Source: a virus (taxonomy: Duplodnaviria; Caudoviricetes). Taken from it: DNA of 35,763 nucleotides. The notes under the pieces are model-generated. The model was not told the DNA's origin, did not search any database, and saw only the letters and a program-made list of their open reading frames with translations. Below are positions 2,878 through 35,763 of this stretch, in pieces. The DNA is taken from the IMG/VR virus record IMGVR_UViG_3300032239_000289, positions 1 through 35,763 of that record; one strand, given 5' to 3'. Numbering within the stretch: the first letter of the stretch is position 1; each line of letters opens with the position of its first letter. Made by a program: the position numbers and the translations under genes.

Positions 2878-2937
2878 TTATAAGCCGAGAAGTATTGCGA
2901 GCATAGCTGCTAGAATCAGTCCGAGAAGCGCGAACAT
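2878..2937 (-). CDS. 19-aa hydrophobic peptide MFALLGLILAAMLAILLGL
   Basis: ATG with GAGGGG RBS; TAA immediately before the terminator element; last ORF of the cassette; too short for the ORF track. Confidence 0.6.
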   Translation of the reverse strand: MFALLGLILAAMLAILLGL

Positions 2938-3173
2938 GCGGACCCCTCGATTTCCTTTATCACGTTATCACGTAGCAGGGCGACGACGTCAACGCCGCCC
3001 GCGTAGGCATGCACTAACCACGCACTGCCGTTATAGCCCACGCCACGATCCGGCGCGCTATATTCGAGAAAACATAGCAGGGTTCCCGTGTCGTACTCGT
3101 ACTCGTACACATGCAAATGTTGCGGCCACCAGGGCGAGTGCGTGTCAATAACAGAGTTCTTAAGCTTGCCCAT
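2916..3173 (-). CDS. Hypothetical protein (85 aa)
   Basis: ORF in a tightly coupled minus-strand cassette, G-rich RBS. Confidence 0.7.
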   Translation of the reverse strand: MGKLKNSVIDTHSPWWPQHLHVYEYEYDTGTLLCFLEYSAPDRGVGYNGSAWLVHAYAGGVDVVALLRDNVIKEIEGSACSRFSD

Positions 3174-3378
3174 TGATGCCCCCCATTCGGTTCATTAGAT
3201 ATTCAGTTGACGTCACAGCGCCCGCGTTGACTAGTTGCGCCGCGTTATATTCGGCGTAGTGCTGGCGCCCGTAACCTGGCCGCACGTAGCAATTTAGCTT
3301 TTGATAGTGTGGCAGGTACGTGACGCCGTTCAAGCGGTACACAATGAAGCTAGCCTTGTCTGTCATTTGATAATTCAT
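3160..3378 (-). CDS. Hypothetical protein (72 aa)
   Basis: ATGA overlap with the upstream gene, GAGGTG RBS. Confidence 0.7.
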   Translation of the reverse strand: MNYQMTDKASFIVYRLNGVTYLPHYQKLNCYVRPGYGRQHYAEYNAAQLVNAGAVTSTEYLMNRMGGINGQA

Positions 3379-3662
3379 GCTGTCACCTCATCCGGTAGTA
3401 TTTCAAATAATGGGATTGATGGATCATATTGCGGCGTACTTGTTTCACTTGCGCCGATATAATCTACCGCTTGCAGCATGTTCAACTTGTCAAAGGCCCG
3501 TATATAGGCCGCCGTTGACATGCTGTCGACCCATACTGGAAACTTTCGTATGTTCTTAGGTTTTGCCGGTTTATAGGGTTTTCTGGCCCGCTTAGTCAAT
3601 TCAAGCTGATCGCGGTCGAATTTAAGCTTGTACGTGGTGCCGTCAATAATTAAGGTTTGCAT
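3375..3662 (-). CDS. Hypothetical protein (95 aa)
   Basis: GGGGGA RBS; coupled to its neighbours. Confidence 0.75.
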   Translation of the reverse strand: MQTLIIDGTTYKLKFDRDQLELTKRARKPYKPAKPKNIRKFPVWVDSMSTAAYIRAFDKLNMLQAVDYIGASETSTPQYDPSIPLFEILPDEVTA

Positions 3663-3674
3663 AAAATCCCCCGT

Positions 3675-3998
3675 TTAAAATTGAACGTAAATAATAGCGC
3701 CCGCTTCGGTTACGCCGATAACGGTCGTTTCATCGTGCAGATAATCTAATACGTTAAGCAGTTCGTTTCCGTCATCTTCGAGGTCGATGGAATAATCGCG
3801 GGCAATATCCTCTGGCAATTGCTCGGATAATTCGCAGCAAAGGGCGATCACGTCGAGTTCATACTCCTCGCCTAAATCGCGCTCTTGGTCTTCTAGATAG
3901 TCGAATATTAGTCCGAGCGCGTCGTAACTGAATTGATCTTTGCGGCCTGCGCGCGCAAATGCGTCCCGAAAATCATAGAGTGATACAGTAGTTTTCAT
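3675..3998 (-). CDS. Acidic hypothetical phage protein (107 aa)
   Basis: GGAG RBS; Asp/Glu-rich; FSYDAL...ELDVIALCCE. Confidence 0.85.
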   Translation of the reverse strand: MKTTVSLYDFRDAFARAGRKDQFSYDALGLIFDYLEDQERDLGEEYELDVIALCCELSEQLPEDIARDYSIDLEDDGNELLNVLDYLHDETTVIGVTEAGAIIYVQF

Positions 3999-4000
3999 GG

Positions 4001-4261
4001 TTAGTTTTCTCCGTAAACGATAGCGAAAATCGGTTCGTGCGTTTTCTTGTCAACAATAACCACATTGTGCCCGTCGTCTTCTATGTCGCCTAATTCAGGG
4101 TTACGGATAAAGCCCGCTTCGCACATTGCCGACAAAATGTCACTCGACGGCGCGTTTATATCTAATTCAACCTTGCCAGCGTTGAACCATTGATTCCACG
4201 TCCAAGAACATGGTTCGTCACTTGCCCACGCTTCGATTGATAATACTTGATAAGATTTCAT
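4001..4261 (-). CDS. Hypothetical protein (86 aa, MKSYQVLS...)
   Basis: Start moved to ATG 4261, which is preceded by GGAGG. Confidence 0.8.
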   Translation of the reverse strand: MKSYQVLSIEAWASDEPCSWTWNQWFNAGKVELDINAPSSDILSAMCEAGFIRNPELGDIEDDGHNVVIVDKKTHEPIFAIVYGEN

Positions 4262-4263
4262 AA

Positions 4264-4422
4264 TTAACCCCTCCAAGTAATTGAAACGATGAACGACAGC
4301 GCGCACGTCAGGCCGCCTAACATGCACTCGCCCGTATTGAACACGTTTTCAACCGCGCCAATAAATAGCAGCCCTAAGCCTGCGCCCGCTAATGCTGCAG
4401 TAATTAAATTAAGTTTTTGCAT
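4264..4422 (-). CDS. Small membrane protein (52 aa, MQKLNLITAALAGAGLGLLFIGAVENVFNTGECMLGGLTCALSFIVSITWRG)
   Basis: AAGGGA RBS; two hydrophobic segments; stop 2 nt before the next ATG; not in the ORF track. Confidence 0.7.
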   Translation of the reverse strand: MQKLNLITAALAGAGLGLLFIGAVENVFNTGECMLGGLTCALSFIVSITWRG

Positions 4423-4448
4423 TTTGATTTTCCCTTGTGGTTTTTATT

Positions 4449-4470
4449 GGCCCGCTTTCGCGGGCCTTTT
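4449..4470. promoter_or_regulatory. Intergenic stem-loop GGCCCGC-GAAA-GCGGGCC (minus-strand reading); terminator-like on the plus strand
   Basis: Perfect 7-bp stem; GNRA loop on the minus strand; T4 follows on the plus strand. Confidence 0.65.
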
Positions 4471-4473
4471 GGT

Positions 4474-4626
4474 TTAATTAAACGACAGGCCAGTAATACG
4501 AAAGCAGGCACCAATAGCAGTTTCAACGTCAATGGTGCCAAAAGGGTGAACAGCCAAAATAGTAACAGTCTGCAATTTGCCGTATACAGTAGTCTGAATT
4601 TTTTGACCGACAGTAGGTTTAGTCAT
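4474..4626 (-). CDS. Hypothetical protein (50 aa, MTKPTVGQKIQTTVYGKLQTVTILAVHPFGTIDVETAIGACFRITGLSFN)
   Basis: AGGGAG RBS; first gene of the cassette; not in the ORF track. Confidence 0.75.
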   Translation of the reverse strand: MTKPTVGQKIQTTVYGKLQTVTILAVHPFGTIDVETAIGACFRITGLSFN

Positions 4627-4746
4627 TTTTTCTCCCTGTTTTGTAAAAGTTTATTTTATACTGCAGATCGATTCTCTCACAAAATAATTAGTTATAAAAG
4701 CTTTTATTGTATAACCTATTAAATTAGTCAAGTAATTGTCGCCAAG

Positions 4747-4956
4747 TGTAGGTAGTTTGAGCGGGCGAAAGTGCCCGCATGAAAAAGCGCGCCGATACTG
4801 GACTTTTTCAGCTTGTGGGTAATTGTAGGTAGTTTTATTTACTGCTTTAAATTTTCCAATTTCATACAGTAGTCTATACAGTAGTTGCCTATTATTTAGG
4901 CAGCGCTTACAGCCAGCGATTTAAACTACCGCCCACAATTGCCTACATTGCCTACA
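4747..4956. repeat. Inverted iteron-like array, putative replication origin
   Basis: TGTRGGTA at 4747, 4814, 4824; reverse YGCCYACA at 4930, 4940, 4949; AT-rich centre. Confidence 0.55.
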
Positions 4957-5009
4957 TAGCTTTTTAATAACACTTGCATGCCCTGATCCGCGTACCCGAA
5001 CCAAAAAAA

Positions 5010-5071
5010 GTGAGTGCTCACTAACATGCAAAGTTAGTGCTCACTAACCTAGTTAGTTAGTGCTTACTAAC
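5010..5071. promoter_or_regulatory. Three tandem near-palindromic protein-binding sites GTKAGTGCTYACTAAC at 23-bp spacing (SlmA-site-like)
   Basis: Copies start at 5010, 5033 and 5056. Confidence 0.75.
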
Positions 5072-5195
5072 ACATAGCTTTTTGGCAATTTTCTTTGGGG
5101 GAGGGGGGTAAGGGCCGCCGCGAACGGCCCTCGAAAACGGAGGGTTCGCAAACAATTTTTTTTTATTTTTAAACTACCCGCAATGACCCCCACGC

Positions 5196-5223
5196 TTGCA
5201 AACTAAAAATTATTTGTTACTAT
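5196..5223 (+). promoter_or_regulatory. Putative sigma70 promoter of the packaging/structural operon
   Basis: TTGCAA-16 bp-TACTAT with extended -10 TGn; predicted +1 at ATG 5230. Confidence 0.5.
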
Positions 5224-5229
5224 GTGAGC

Positions 5230-5679
5230 ATGTTCAAATCAATCCCATTTTCTGTTCGTAAAGTAGAAGCGACTGAGGCGCGTCTTCAGGCGATCTATGA
5301 CGCTGCGGCTTTGGGCTTGAAGGGTGACTCGCTGGCGTTAGCTGCTGGCATGCGTCCAGAAGAATATCGACGGCTGTGTGAGTTTGATCCGATTGCGACG
5401 TTAGCCGAGCAGAAGGGTAGAGCAGACTCCGAAATGGAAGCTAGCAAGCATTTGCGTACAGCGGCCAGAGCAGGCGACGCTAAGGCAGCGTTGGCGATCC
5501 TGCAGCACAGCCACGGCTGGACAGCCAAGCAAGAGATCAGCATCGACGTCTATCAGAAGATCAGTATCACGCAGGCGTTAGAACAAGCCCAAAGCCGAGT
5601 CATCGACGGACTCATCACGGAACAACAACCCCAGACGTTACAAACTACACTGACACATGGCGCAACTGCCGATCTATGA
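5230..5679 (+). CDS. terS: Terminase small subunit (probable)
   Basis: Overlaps terL start; helical HTH-like N-terminus; AGDAKAALAILQH...W motif; alternative GTG start at 5224. Confidence 0.75.
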   Translation: MFKSIPFSVRKVEATEARLQAIYDAAALGLKGDSLALAAGMRPEEYRRLCEFDPIATLAEQKGRADSEMEASKHLRTAARAGDAKAALAILQHSHGWTAKQEISIDVYQKISITQALEQAQSRVIDGLITEQQPQTLQTTLTHGATADL

Positions 5680-7195
5680 TTCCGAGGGCGAGCAGCTCTT
5701 AATGACGCGGTTGTGGGCACCCACGATCGCGGACGATCCAGAAGCGTTCGTACTGTTTGCGTTTCCGTGGGGGCAACCCAACACACCGCTGGCTAAGTTC
5801 AAAGGCCCACGCACATGGCAGCGCAAGGTGCTGCGCAAGATAGCCACGCATCTAAAAAACAATCGCGGGCAAGTTGACATGGACGCCATGCGGGCGGCTG
5901 TCGCATCTGGCCGTGGTATTGGTAAGTCGGCGTTAGTTAGCTGGCTAATCCTGTGGATGCTGACCACTCGCATCGGGTCAAGCGTGATCGTGTCAGCTAA
6001 CAGCGAAGCTCAGTTGCGATCAGTGACTTGGGGTGAGTTGACCAAATGGCAGGCGATGGTCATTAACAACCACTGGTGGGAGATCAGCGCAACTAAGCTG
6101 GTGCCCGCTAAATGGGTGTCAGAGCTAGTCGAGCGCGACTTGAAGAAGGGTACCAGGTACTGGGGTGCTGAGGGTAAGCTGTGGTCGGAAGAAAATCCCG
6201 ACGCGTACGCCGGTGTGCACAACCATGACGGCATGATGCTGATCTTTGATGAGGCGTCTGGTATACCGGATGCGATCTGGTCGGTTGGTGCGGGCTTCTT
6301 CACCGAGCCGATATTGGATAGGTATTGGTTTGCGTTCAGTAACCCGCGACGCAACCAAGGCTACTTCTACGAATGCTTCCACGCTAAGCGTGCGTTTTGG
6401 CACACAGAGAACATCGACTCACGGGATGTCGAGGACACGGACAAGCAGATATATGAGCAGATCATTGCGGAATATGGCGAGGATTCGCCGCAGGCTAGGG
6501 TTGAGGTCTACGGTGAATTTCCATCGGCTGGCGAAGATCAGTTTATTGGTGCGCGTGCTGTCGACGAGGCCGCCGAGCGGCCAAAGTACAAGGATGAAAC
6601 GGCTCCGATTGTTATCGGAGTTGACCCAGCTCGAGGCGGCGCGGACGCCACCGTCATCGTCGTTAGACAAGGACGCGACTTGGTAGCGATCAAGCGGTAC
6701 CACGGCGAGGACACCATGACGACCGTTGGACGGGTGATCGATGCAATTGAAGAGTACCGGCCAGCACTAACAGTCATTGACGAAGGTGGATTGGGTTACG
6801 GAATACTTGACAGATTAAAAGAACAGCGATACAAGGTTCGTGGAGTAAACTTCGGTTGGAAGTCCAGCAAACCCGTCATGTGGGGTAACAAGCGTGCGGA
6901 GATGTGGGGCATGATGAAGGATTGGCTAAAGAGCGCCAGTATCCCGAACGACCGACAACTAAAAGCGGATTTGACCGGCCCGATGAAAAAGCCTGACTCG
7001 TCGGGTACGATCTATCTGGAAGGCAAGAAAGAGATGAAGTCTCGCGGTCTGGCCTCACCGGACGCAGCCGACGCACTAGCAGTGACGTTCGCGTTTCCGG
7101 TGGCTCATCGTGAGTCGAGTTATGACCGCGCAACGCGAGGTGCACCGCGTGCGTACCAACAGCAAACAGCCGCAACGGGATGGATGGGGAACTGA
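5657..7195 (+). CDS. terL: Terminase large subunit
   Basis: Walker A SGRGIGKS, Walker B MMLIFDEASG, FSNP coupling motif, nuclease GVDPARGGAD and SPDAADA. Confidence 0.96.
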   Translation: MAQLPIYDSEGEQLLMTRLWAPTIADDPEAFVLFAFPWGQPNTPLAKFKGPRTWQRKVLRKIATHLKNNRGQVDMDAMRAAVASGRGIGKSALVSWLILWMLTTRIGSSVIVSANSEAQLRSVTWGELTKWQAMVINNHWWEISATKLVPAKWVSELVERDLKKGTRYWGAEGKLWSEENPDAYAGVHNHDGMMLIFDEASGIPDAIWSVGAGFFTEPILDRYWFAFSNPRRNQGYFYECFHAKRAFWHTENIDSRDVEDTDKQIYEQIIAEYGEDSPQARVEVYGEFPSAGEDQFIGARAVDEAAERPKYKDETAPIVIGVDPARGGADATVIVVRQGRDLVAIKRYHGEDTMTTVGRVIDAIEEYRPALTVIDEGGLGYGILDRLKEQRYKVRGVNFGWKSSKPVMWGNKRAEMWGMMKDWLKSASIPNDRQLKADLTGPMKKPDSSGTIYLEGKKEMKSRGLASPDAADALAVTFAFPVAHRESSYDRATRGAPRAYQQQTAATGWMGN

Positions 7196-33115: not shown

Positions 33116-33757
33116 ATGTCCAGTATAGTAACCTTCAAAGGTGCAAACCTTCCTTCTGTAACTTCCCTGTCAACCGCGTTGCGCACGTTGGATACCGAAG
33201 TCGGCCCAACCGGCTCAGTCATCCTGAAAATGGATAAGACCGGCCATTGGGTGTTTGGTGCAGATCAAACCGAAGTCGATGACGATTCCACATGGGCGAT
33301 CAATCCTTTCTCATTCATTCACGGATTCATTGCGTGGGGCGATGGCGAGGTGTTGGGCGAGAAGATGGTATCTGTCACCGAGCCGTTGCCTGAGATGGAG
33401 TCCGCTCCACCGAATGCAAAGAACGGATGGCAGCCACAAGTAGGCATGTCGTTGAAGTGCGTCGATGGTGCCGACAAGGACATGGAAGCGCGTTACCCCG
33501 TGACGTCTGTTGGCGGTAAGCGTGCAGTTCAGCAATTGGCTGTTGCGATTGCTGAGCAGGTTGAGAAGGATCAGAGCAAGCCGGTGCCGGTTGTGCGTCT
33601 TGGTAAAGACCACTATCAGCACAAGTCATACGGTCGCATCTACACGCCGGTCTTTGAGATCGTCGAGTGGGTGAGTATTGATGGCGAGCGCGAAGAGCCA
33701 AAAGCAGAAGCAGCACCAGTTGTTGAAGCTGCTCCTGCACGTCGTCGTCGCGGATAA
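33116..33757 (+). CDS. Probable single-stranded DNA-binding protein
   Basis: Lies between the DUF2800 gene and the polymerase; YQHKSYGRIYTPVFEIVEW. Confidence 0.6.
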   Translation: MSSIVTFKGANLPSVTSLSTALRTLDTEVGPTGSVILKMDKTGHWVFGADQTEVDDDSTWAINPFSFIHGFIAWGDGEVLGEKMVSVTEPLPEMESAPPNAKNGWQPQVGMSLKCVDGADKDMEARYPVTSVGGKRAVQQLAVAIAEQVEKDQSKPVPVVRLGKDHYQHKSYGRIYTPVFEIVEWVSIDGEREEPKAEAAPVVEAAPARRRRG

Positions 33758-33768
33758 GTAAAAAGTCG

Positions 33769-33900
33769 GCATGGGCCTACGTAGCATCGACACATGCGCC
33801 GGATAATCGTAACCGGCATTAATATACCTACGGGGAAAAGCGGATGCTGGGATAGTGGAAGCGGAGATGATTTACTACTACCTGATGCAGCGAGTACCCC
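33769..33900 (+). ncRNA. Candidate structured RNA elements in the SSB-polymerase intergenic region
   Basis: Hairpins GCATG/CATGC and GCCGG/CCGGC; long hairpin 33832-33900 with GAA/AGTA internal loop. Confidence 0.4.
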
Positions 33901-33910
33901 ACCTAATTTT

Positions 33911-35763
33911 ATGAAAATACTCTGGATTGATTTCGAGACGCGCAGTCGCTGCGATTTATCCTCGCGTGGAGTTTATAACTATGCACAAGACGCCAGTACA
34001 GATGTACTTTGTATGTCATACGCCTTTGATGATGGTGAAGTTTTCACCTGGACTCCCGACCAACCATTTCCCGATGAAGTGGCTAAGCACGATGGGACGA
34101 TATGCGCCCATAACGCCGCGTTTGAGCGGCTCATTTTCTGGTATGTCTTACAAATTAACTTTGAACTCGAGCAGTTCTACTGCACCGCTGCCCAAGCGCG
34201 TGCTAACTGCTTACCTGGAAGCCTTGAAGACGTCGGACGTGCGCTCAGCAGCCAAATGCGCAAAGACCACCGAGGAAGCCAGCTTATCCGTGCACTTTCC
34301 ATCCCTCGCGCTGATGGATCGTTTAACGATTCGCCCGAGCTAATGGCTGAGATGATTGCGTACTGCGAGCAGGACGTACGCGCTATGCGTGCCGTATCAC
34401 AAGCCATGCGGCCACTGTCCGACGTTGAGCTAGCCGACTATCACACGAACGAGCGCATCAACGACCGTGGCGTGTTGCTTGACTTACCATTGGCCAAAGC
34501 CGCGATCAAGTACGCTGCTGCTGAGCTTGACGAGATCGAGACGCTAGTTGCTGAGCTGACCGAAGGCCAGATCAAGTCCGTGCGCAGCCCTAAGATGCGC
34601 CAATGGGTGATGGATCGCGTAGGGCCGCAGGCGTTGAAGATGATGGAAACAATCAAAGACGGCGAGTTGAAGTACAGTATCGACAAGTCAGTACGCGCCA
34701 ATTTACTAGTTTTTGCGGAGGAAAACCCCGATGAGATTCCGGCCCATGTTGCGGACGTCATTCAATGTGCAGATGATCTCTGGGCGTCAAGCGTTGCGAA
34801 GTTCAGCCGCCTTGCGGGCTTGGCAGACGAGGACGATCAACGAGTACGAGGTGCTTTTGTCTTCGCTGGAGGGAGTGCCACCGGAAGAGCTTCCTCCTAC
34901 GGTGCGCAAGTTCACAATTTTACGAGAAAATGTGCCAAAGAACCCGAGGATGCTAGGCATGCTATGGTCAGAGGCCACAGCATCGTTCCAAGATTTGGAA
35001 GACGCATTACAGATGTTCTCAGGGGAATGCTCCGGCCCGCACTGATACCGGCAGCCGGTCATTCGTTCGTTGTAGCCGATTGGTCGGCCATCGAGGCACG
35101 CGTCACCCCGTGGGCGTCAGCCGACCCGCAAGCCGAGTCGGTGCTAGACGTCTTCCGCGAAGGCCGCGACATCTACATACGCGAGGCCGCAGGCATCTAC
35201 CGCATACCGGAGTCCCAGATCGGGCCAGAATCCGAAGAGCGCCAGATCGGTAAGGTCGCAATCCTGTCCCTTGGCTTCGGCGGCTCGGTTGGCGCGTTCT
35301 CGGCGATGGGTCGCAATTACGGTATCGTTATGGCCGAGTCGGATTCGCGTCGGATCGTTGACGCGTGGCGTCGTGCAAACCCGTGGGCCGTGCGCTATTG
35401 GGAAAAGCTTGAGAACGCCTACCGTAGCGCGTTGCGCAACCCTGGACGTGAGTTCTCAGCGGGGCGCGTTACGTACCTTTACGACAAGCAGCATCTCTGG
35501 TATGCGTTACCGTCTGGTCGCATTTTGTGCTACCCGTTCGCTAAGTTTGAGGGTGACGAGATCACGTATGTGAAGGCCGCATGGAAGCCAGCAGCAGATG
35601 CCAAAGAATGGCCAAGAGCGCGCTTGTGGCGTGGGCTTGCATGTGAGAACATAACGCAGGCAATCGCGCACGATTTGCTGCGCCATTCCTTACGCCAATT
35701 ATCTGACACCGTCCTACATGTACATGATGAAATCGTACTCGAGTCAAAAAATCCCGAAGCTGA
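33911..35763 (+). CDS. polA: DNA polymerase family A with 3'-5' exonuclease (650 aa when joined to 1-430; runs off the window end)
   Basis: Own translation: IDFET (ExoI), HNAAFE (ExoII), YCEQD (ExoIII), INDRG, TGRASS, VADWSAIEARV (A), RQIGKVAILSLGFGG (B), VHDE (C); missed by the ORF track. Confidence 0.95.
   Translation, partial: MKILWIDFETRSRCDLSSRGVYNYAQDASTDVLCMSYAFDDGEVFTWTPDQPFPDEVAKHDGTICAHNAAFERLIFWYVLQINFELEQFYCTAAQARANCLPGSLEDVGRALSSQMRKDHRGSQLIRALSIPRADGSFNDSPELMAEMIAYCEQDVRAMRAVSQAMRPLSDVELADYHTNERINDRGVLLDLPLAKAAIKYAAAELDEIETLVAELTEGQIKSVRSPKMRQWVMDRVGPQALKMMETIKDGELKYSIDKSVRANLLVFAEENPDEIPAHVADVIQCADDLWASSVAKFSRLAGLADEDDQRVRGAFVFAGGSATGRASSYGAQVHNFTRKCAKEPEDARHAMVRGHSIVPRFGRRITDVLRGMLRPALIPAAGHSFVVADWSAIEARVTPWASADPQAESVLDVFREGRDIYIREAAGIYRIPESQIGPESEERQIGKVAILSLGFGGSVGAFSAMGRNYGIVMAESDSRRIVDAWRRANPWAVRYWEKLENAYRSALRNPGREFSAGRVTYLYDKQHLWYALPSGRILCYPFAKFEGDEITYVKAAWKPAADAKEWPRARLWRGLACENITQAIAHDLLRHSLRQLSDTVLHVHDEIVLESKNPEA
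35434..35763 (+). repeat. Terminal direct repeat, right copy
   Basis: Matches 1-330 (320/330 identical). Confidence 0.98.

What the first reader, a model, noticed from the sequence alone, without database searches (positions are those of the whole stretch)
5010..5071. Three phased SlmA-binding-site-like boxes: possible protein-free hijack of host nucleoid occlusion
Seen: GTGAGTGCTCAC-TAAC (5010), GTTAGTGCTCAC-TAAC (5033) and GTTAGTGCTTAC-TAAC (5056), exactly 23 bp apart in non-coding DNA between the putative origin and terS. The third extends to a 20-bp dyad, GTTAGTTAGTGCTTACTAAC. Known: the E. coli SlmA site core is GTGAGTACTCAC (copy 1 differs by one base); DNA-bound SlmA antagonises FtsZ, and such sites on multicopy DNA can inhibit division. 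I recognised no TetR-like gene in this genome. Inference: replicating phage DNA recruits host SlmA to block septation or protect phage DNA from the septum, a cis-acting DNA effector. I cannot tell whether this has been described for phages.
Basis: partly seen in the sequence, partly recalled or inferred. Interest (0 to 1): 0.85.

Follow-up and report, generated by a model that had tools for sequence, protein, structure and literature searches.

The report
Phage docking array for host SlmA
Three short DNA palindromes just ahead of this phage's DNA-packaging genes match the published binding site of SlmA, a bacterial protein that blocks cell division over DNA, and recur in several unrelated phage groups, so the phage likely loads the host's SlmA onto its own DNA, which would delay host division without any phage protein.

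Summary
The three boxes are real (5006-5071) and match the published 20-bp SlmA site. They form an optional cassette. Of 173 distinct terS-upstream regions in this family, 108 carry 1-9 copies and 65 carry none, even beside near-identical TerS. The 23-bp spacing is not conserved; the position beside a G-tract upstream of terminase is. Phage groups sharing almost no proteins carry the same single cluster, and no TetR gene was found in 45 viral records, so the binder is probably host-encoded. SlmA occurs in 74 of 101 Burkholderiales genomes with an unchanged DNA-reading helix. In 12 closed slmA-positive chromosomes the box is origin-biased (38 of 44 sites; control 38 of 67). Against: this phage's host is unproven; betaproteobacterial SlmA lacks R73; the E. 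coli plasmid block used about 4x SlmA; and a Rhizobium phage-plasmid carries 36 look-alike dyads where SlmA is not expected. Odds: SlmA binds about 0.7; division block about 0.4. The scan noted such arrays before on other DNA (14 findings); I found no paper describing them.

The parts
5006..5025 (.). SlmA-type box 1 (20-bp register; 12-bp core 5010-5021)
   Evidence: 4 mismatches to the published 20-bp E. coli consensus, core 1 mismatch
5029..5048 (.). SlmA-type box 2 (core 5033-5044)
   Evidence: T at core position 3 on the left half, as in natural E. coli site SBS17
5052..5071 (.). SlmA-type box 3, the best dyad (8 of 10 pairs; highest family-matrix score, 30.1 of 33.0)
5097..5170 (+). G-tract, GGGCC and A/T-tract element; inferred packaging or genome-end signal, kept by carriers and non-carriers
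   Evidence: G-runs at 5097 and 5103; G-tract in 93 of 100 multi-box loci and 47 of 65 box-free loci; no special fold, z -0.29; function inferred, not shown
5196..5223 (+). Promoter-like pair (TTGCAA, 16 nt, TACTAT) just before the terS ATG; likely leaderless
   Evidence: Read by eye, 8 of 12, below the scan threshold so not listed; a -10-like hexamer ends 5-9 nt before the start in 130 of 173 relatives, SD-like word in 3 of 173
5230..5679 (+). Putative small terminase (TerS)
   Evidence: Overlaps terL start; no Pfam, PHROG or NCBIfam hit; Atlas lists a terminase-small-subunit cluster at 0.95, rank 26; best fold match PaP3 small terminase, E 0.28, not significant
5657..7195 (+). Large terminase
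   Evidence: phrog_2 E 7e-44; PF03237
4938..4955 (+). Two tandem ATTGCCTAC repeats marking the left edge of the variable slot; iteron-like, function untested
   Evidence: also in non-carriers
4653..4682 (-). Promoter-like site heading the small leftward ORFs (2916-4626)
   Evidence: 9 of 12 consensus match

Best explanation
The three boxes match the published SlmA site and are likely docking sites for the host's SlmA, probably of a betaproteobacterium; as phage DNA multiplies it would carry many DNA-activated SlmA complexes through the cell, which would hold off FtsZ ring assembly and delay division with no phage protein. Shown: the boxes, their match, their conservation as an optional cassette beside a G-tract upstream of terminase, their spread over unrelated phage groups, the conserved SlmA helix and origin-biased sites in Burkholderiales. 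Inferred: the host (moderate), SlmA binding (about 0.7), four SlmA monomers per box (from E. coli), and the effect on division (about 0.55 if SlmA binds).
For: Site match: consensus and natural sites in PMC4423959 and position rules in PMC3020112; family logo has G1 0.99, T2 0.98, G5 0.81, pyrimidine at 6 0.99, G commonest at 3 (sites were picked with a pattern built from that consensus, so partly circular). Enrichment: about 1100 viral stretches versus 110 for the reversed pattern; 478 sites versus 0.4 in shuffles over 173 loci. Host-encoded binder: 0 of 45 viral records have TetR_N; the other carrier groups share 0-5 proteins with this family, and no window frame hits more than 4 of the 9 other genomes. 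Not TerS: carriers and non-carriers at 98.4-98.7% TerS identity, at least 13 gains or losses on the TerS tree, 6 forced by starred branches. Host side: slmA over cut-off in 74 of 101 genomes of G003's order; T33, T34, S44-R50, K55, F65, F98, N102 in 32 of 32; box origin-biased in 12 closed slmA-positive chromosomes, 38 of 44 in the origin half versus 38 of 67 for the reversed pattern (Mann-Whitney p 2e-5; closer in 10 of 12 genomes) and 10 of 21 in 3 genomes where slmA was not found. Four of six actinobacterial hits sit beside a TetR with the same TT..SEA(A/T)LY helix, so this helix goes with this box. Host hints: 2 of 3 family contigs in MAGs are in slmA-positive betaproteobacterial bins; a box-free subclade carries PqqA resembling Burkholderiales PqqA; PstS of the T5-like carrier is 69-77% identical to three slmA-positive genomes of that order versus 51% to Pantoea. 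Precedent: tandem sites on a multicopy plasmid block division in E. coli (PMC3573117). Variable copy number and spacing fit a dosage effect.
Against: No binding or phenotype data. The host of this phage is unknown; the third MAG contig is in a Chloroflexota bin without slmA, and co-binning is weak evidence. Burkholderiales chromosomes hold few boxes and no more than the reversed control in total (44 versus 67); my Enterobacterales positive control was only weakly origin-biased (23 of 39, p 0.17). R73, needed against FtsZ in E. coli, is Leu in 31 of 32. The plasmid block in PMC3573117 used SlmA at about 4x native level. Rhizobium phage B1VFA has 36 similar dyads and SSU5 10 in its first 50 kb, dispersed before genes; Alphaproteobacteria are not expected to have SlmA (recalled; Caulobacter control below cut-off), so the look alone does not prove SlmA. 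The last box ends within 10 nt of the G-tract in 79 of 106 loci, tighter than a dosage role needs. 65 of 173 relatives do without the array.
Confidence: 0.4

Rival explanations
1. Host SlmA binds but acts locally: as an architectural helper or switch at the packaging or genome-end signal, or as a distant activator of the terS promoter, like IHF at lambda cos (recalled) or SlmA at the V. cholerae chb promoter.
For: Last box ends 2-3 nt before the G-tract in 59 of 106 loci and no box lies downstream of it; box-plus-G-tract junction about 200 versus 6 for the control; a large terminase follows in 16 of 18 scanned non-family loci; SlmA activates Pchb from 167 bp upstream without needing its anti-FtsZ activity (10.1101/141812); box 3 centre is about 170 bp from the terS start here.
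Against: Distance to terS varies from 87 to 925 nt, whereas Pchb tolerates no shift; spacing is not helical; near-identical phages lack the array; in the T5-like carrier it is 5.3 kb from terS.
Confidence: 0.22
2. The binder is not SlmA: another host TetR with the same helix, or phage regulators that converged on a similar dyad, as seems likely for SSU5-like phage-plasmids; three dyads 23 bp apart also recall a lambda-type tripartite operator (recalled).
For: B1VFA and SSU5 dyads; actinobacterial TetR operators; many small window ORFs have no family; the record is 96% complete.
Against: B1VFA logo differs (A at position 3 in 94%; G in 2 of 72 half-sites versus 232 of 478 here) and is dispersed, not clustered; only lysozyme is shared between the window and those phage-plasmids; boxes do not overlap either promoter-like site; no protein tracks the array across groups.
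Confidence: 0.2
3. The array lies at the first-entering end of the virion DNA and captures SlmA (and DnaA in many relatives) to anchor, pause or shield the incoming DNA, as proposed for DnaA boxes in the T5 injection-stop region.
For: Perfect DnaA box in 48 of 108 carriers versus 2 of 65 non-carriers (kin not independent); array among small genes upstream of terS in a T5-like phage; T5 model (10.1101/866236 abstract); SlmA binds membranes (PMC7468209 abstract).
Against: Genome ends were not determined (only contigs available); this window has no DnaA box in 4500-5230; the T5 model is itself a proposal.
Confidence: 0.12
4. The boxes are the small terminase's own recognition sites.
For: Three repeats directly upstream of terS resemble lambda cosB R-sites (recalled); TerS has a helical N-terminal domain.
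Against: Absent beside 98.4-98.7% identical TerS; present beside unrelated terminases.
Confidence: 0.04

Closest known systems
Chromosomal SlmA-binding sites (SBS) of E. coli (PMC3020112, PMC4423959, PMC3116907)
   Same: 12-bp core and 20-bp extended dyad; position preferences; origin-biased chromosomal distribution now seen for the same box in Burkholderiales
   Different: On phage DNA, as one tight non-coding cluster of 1-9 copies, whereas E. coli sites are scattered and mainly in coding regions; binding not shown
pUC-2xSBS synthetic division block (PMC3573117)
   Same: Tandem SBS on multicopy DNA
   Different: Natural and conserved; host SlmA has R73L; the E. coli result used about 4x SlmA
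SlmA site in the V. cholerae chb promoter (10.1101/141812)
   Same: Intergenic site some 130-170 bp upstream of a start
   Different: Multiple copies, variable distance, optional
DnaA boxes of the T5 injection-stop region (10.1101/866236)
   Same: Host cell-cycle protein sites clustered in phage non-coding DNA near the terminase or genome-end region; DnaA boxes accompany the array in 48 of 108 carriers
   Different: Different protein; arrangement not fixed; genome ends unknown here
Dispersed dyads of SSU5-like phage-plasmids (SSU5, Rhizobium phage B1VFA; seen)
   Same: Overlapping 20-bp dyad
   Different: A at position 3, relaxed centre, many copies in front of genes, and a host not expected to have SlmA
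Phage division inhibitors such as lambda Kil (PMC11762379, listing only)
   Same: Proposed outcome, FtsZ inhibition
   Different: Those are proteins; this would be DNA only

Membership tests
SlmA-binding site (SBS) | 12-bp core with G1, T2, A4, G5 on both halves | tested here: met
   All three window cores keep these positions; 98 of 239 family sites at up to 4 mismatches and 39 of 47 sites in other groups keep all eight
SlmA-binding site (SBS) | Purine at position 3 | tested here: inconclusive
   Box 1 yes; boxes 2 and 3 have T on one half. PMC3020112 tested double changes; natural SBS17 also departs from the core
SlmA-binding site (SBS) | 20-bp extended dyad for two SlmA dimers | tested here: met
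   Box 3 8 of 10 pairs; boxes 1 and 2 have the right flank only; minimum spacing 19-20 bp
SlmA-binding site (SBS) | Host encodes SlmA with the same recognition helix | tested here: inconclusive
   Met for 74 of 101 candidate-order genomes; the actual host is not identified
SlmA-binding site (SBS) | Same motif origin-biased on host chromosomes | tested here: met
   38 of 44 versus 38 of 67 control in 12 slmA-positive chromosomes; total counts not above control
SlmA-binding site (SBS) | SlmA binds in vitro or in vivo | not testable with these tools
   Needs EMSA or ChIP
Nucleoid-occlusion effector DNA | Bound SlmA antagonises FtsZ (F65, R73, R101, N102) | tested here: inconclusive
   F65 and N102 32 of 32, R101K, L105M (tolerated in E. 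coli), R73L in 31 of 32
TerS recognition site | Co-conserved with TerS | tested here: not met
Phage repressor tripartite operator | Overlaps promoters, fixed spacing, cognate phage repressor | tested here: not met
   No overlap with promoter-like sites; spacing 19-80 bp; no repressor found, though an unknown fold cannot be excluded
SSU5-like phage-plasmid dyad | TAAGTA-N6-TACTTA dispersed before many genes | tested here: not met
   One cluster per genome and G or T common at position 3
matS (MatP site) | 13-bp GTGAC..GTCAC | tested here: not met
   0 of 173 loci; none in window 4500-5230

The most novel reading that the evidence does not exclude
Unrelated phages carry a swappable, protein-free host-takeover cassette beside their packaging signal: SlmA arrays to stop division, often with a DnaA box to soak up the replication initiator, replaced in other lineages by Fur-like boxes. 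Replicating phage DNA itself would be the effector. The pattern also implies that Betaproteobacteria run SlmA-type nucleoid occlusion with only a handful of origin-proximal sites, which one infecting genome could rival.
Probability: 0.3. Interest if true: 0.85.

Novelty: new variant of a known kind. Interest (0 to 1): 0.62.

Why it matters
Phage division blockers that I know of are proteins. A natural DNA-only block through host SlmA would be a new takeover route, invisible to gene annotation, and testable with a single plasmid. The array could also serve as a host marker for uncultured phages. As a side result, the origin bias of the box gives sequence evidence that betaproteobacterial SlmA reads the E. 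coli-type site; my one search on SlmA in Betaproteobacteria (5 listings) showed nothing on this.

Tried and rejected
Count-based enrichment in Burkholderiales chromosomes failed: 12-mer and 20-mer counts were at or below the reversed control; only position relative to dnaA was informative. A shared regulon was not found: the best chromosomal sites lie in or near different genes. No box near slmA except a moderate one (score 16) inside the upstream gene in 2 of 32 loci. Helical phasing rejected. NtrC-like sites noticed by eye were not confirmed by a strict scan, 0 of 173. Chi octamers: 4 of 65 non-carriers and 0 of 108 carriers, no clear signal. Host from cultured relatives: none close; best TerL 73% and 68% to two uncultured records that lack the array, 50% to Ralstonia phages. 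PstS homologue and cluster look-ups gave no organism names. No exact PqqA match in the 42 stretches read. Genome ends and expression: only contigs, no RNA holder listed. Fold search for TerS not significant. G-tract hairpin not better than shuffles; my search for a described G-rich packaging signal gave no listing that names one. Pseudomonas phage hairong has 1 weak match in 50 kb. No complex prediction was run: the question is protein-DNA.

Full report
Observation. In 20-bp register they span 5006-5025, 5029-5048 and 5052-5071, differ from the published E. coli 20-bp consensus at 4, 5 and 5 positions, and are the only matches to a degenerate 20-bp pattern in the window; 1 of 200 shuffles gave three matches anywhere. 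Contigs from two runs show the same letters, but may be the source of this DNA. The window is a 96%-complete virus record with P22-like portal and coat, primase, SNF2 helicase, DUF2800 exonuclease and polymerase fragments. The ORF at 5230 is taken as TerS from its position and weak hints only.

What the papers say. I read passages of PMC3020112 (12-bp core; G1, T2, A4, G5 critical), PMC3116907, PMC4423959 (20-bp consensus, natural sites, 4:1 complex), PMC3573117 (plasmid block at about 4x SlmA; section 7 on FtsZ-contact residues), 10.1101/141812 (SlmA as activator), PMC7761207 (nothing on Burkholderia SlmA) and 10.1101/2020.04.02.019802 (PqqA in a predicted Methylophilaceae phage). I saw only abstracts and outlines of 10.1101/866236 and PMC7468209. 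No supplements were opened. Searches listed no paper on SlmA sites in phage DNA; I saw only the top listings, and most subscription papers are not held.

Conservation in the family. After removing loci with under 600 nt upstream or short TerS matches, and duplicates, 173 distinct terS-upstream regions remained from 250: 65 have no box, 8 one, 100 two to nine; 478 sites against 0.4 in shuffles. Spacing is free (19-80 bp), but the last box ends within 10 nt of a G-tract in 79 of 106 loci and none lies beyond it; in this window the gap is 25 nt. The G-tract element persists in non-carriers. Presence is patchy: three carrier and non-carrier pairs have 98.4-98.7% identical TerS, and the label needs at least 13 changes on a 132-row TerS tree, with few columns and many open forks. 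The array is therefore an optional cassette and not a TerS site.

Spread across unrelated phages. The 16-mer occurs in about 1100 viral stretches against 110 for its reverse. Of 118 clustered loci classified (of 119 returned), 83 belong to this family and 35 did not hit its terminase; some of those 35 are short or truncated family members. The others sit before different terminases or, in a T5-like phage, 5.3 kb upstream of terS. In 18 fetched records plus the window, carriers mostly have one tight cluster and few or no strong sites elsewhere; the other groups share 0-5 proteins with this family, and no window frame hits more than 4 of 9 other genomes. None of 45 viral records, 24 of them at least 90% complete, has a TetR_N domain. 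The box-plus-G-tract junction occurs about 200 times against 6; among 20 non-family loci, 18 were scanned and 16 lead to a large terminase.

Host side. A clustered pattern found 10 loci in GTDB genomes: three contigs of this phage family (two in betaproteobacterial bins with slmA, one in a Chloroflexota bin without), one Pantoea locus and six actinobacterial loci. Four of the six lie beside a TetR whose helix resembles SlmA's. In the order of G003, which I take to be GTDB Burkholderiales since names are hidden, slmA is over cut-off in 74 of 101 genomes. In 32 such proteins the DNA-reading residues are invariant, F65, F98 and N102 too, while R73 is Leu in 31. Site counts on these chromosomes do not exceed the reversed control. 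Their positions do differ: in 12 closed slmA-positive chromosomes, with dnaA as origin proxy, 38 of 44 sites lie in the origin half (median 0.20) against 38 of 67 control sites (0.46), p 2e-5; three genomes where slmA was not found give 10 of 21. I chose these genomes because they appeared closed, left out G084 and G119 (largest contig not clearly whole), merged three overlapping matches and dropped one control site on a second replicon. Genomes are related, and my Enterobacterales control was only weakly biased (23 of 39). Further host hints are PqqA in a box-free subclade and PstS in the T5-like carrier. None of this fixes the host of this phage.

Results against. Rhizobium phage B1VFA carries 36 similar dyads and SSU5 10 in 50 kb, placed before genes, with no SlmA-like gene found in B1VFA. 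Their logo differs (A at position 3 in 94%) and they are dispersed, but they show that this look does not prove SlmA. The R73 change and the 4x SlmA level in the plasmid experiment weaken the division-block step. The tight link to the G-tract favours a local role, or else cassette exchange anchored on that shared element.

Other occupants of the slot. Using motifs recalled from memory, perfect DnaA boxes occur in 48 of 108 carriers and 2 of 65 non-carriers, Fur-like boxes in 0 of 108 and 7 of 65, LexA-like in 11 and 2, with shuffles at 0-3. Kin are not independent. This suggests a slot for host-protein docking sites.

Mechanism and verdict. Most likely the boxes bind host SlmA (about 0.7). Given binding, I favour activation of SlmA on amplified phage DNA and a delay of division, because copy number and spacing are free, the cassette is optional, and candidate hosts hold few strong sites of their own; overall 0.4. 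A local role at the packaging signal or terS promoter (0.22), a different binder (0.2), an entry role (0.12) and TerS (0.04) follow. It works like an SBS array; membership is supported by sequence and host-side tests but binding is untested. The scan reached a similar reading on other DNA (14 findings); these are AI notes, not independent evidence.

Noticed in passing
L769-L771 (MT770738, whole record) and L773 (SSU5 1-50000): SSU5-like phage-plasmids carry a dispersed TAAGTA-N6-TACTTA dyad before many genes (36 in B1VFA, 10 in 50 kb of SSU5) in hosts of different classes; binder unknown.
   Followed up: partly
L605:1355-1426 and ten related loci: A box-free subclade encodes PqqA directly upstream of terS, several with Fur-like boxes nearby.
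   Followed up: partly
Closed chromosomes G090, G071, G046, G059, G114, G118 and others: SlmA-type boxes are origin-proximal in slmA-positive Burkholderiales; one lies just upstream of dnaA in G090.
   Followed up: yes
L628, L712, L699, L626, L642, L714: Tandem 8-9-nt repeats fill the slot before the G-tract in several relatives; L699 has two E. coli Chi octamers.
   Followed up: partly
window:5097-5170: A G-tract, GGGCC and A/T-tract element upstream of terS is conserved in this family, and a similar G-tract precedes unrelated terminases; possible packaging or end signal.
   Followed up: partly
window:5196-5232: terS appears leaderless across the family (-10-like hexamer 5-9 nt before the start in 130 of 173; SD-like word in 3).
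   Followed up: partly
window:1-330 and 35434-35763; 33757-35763: The record's ends overlap by about 330 nt (a 12-mer context recurs at 15 and 35448), and the DNA polymerase region appears as short ORFs across the join, possibly frameshifted in assembly.
   Followed up: no
L209, L213, L214, L217: Actinobacterial TetRs with a SlmA-like helix have two such boxes directly upstream of their own gene.
   Followed up: partly
G172 (L472-L476): A 98-kb T5-like phage with PstS, PhoH and three boxes followed by a Fur-like sequence seen by eye.
   Followed up: partly
L708:4966-5595; L703:2921-3637: Family members encode a protein with weak similarity to the DnaA C-terminal domain and a sliding-clamp-like protein.
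   Followed up: no
window:10457-10819: Dps-like DUF5856 gene right after the portal, conserved in the family.
   Followed up: no
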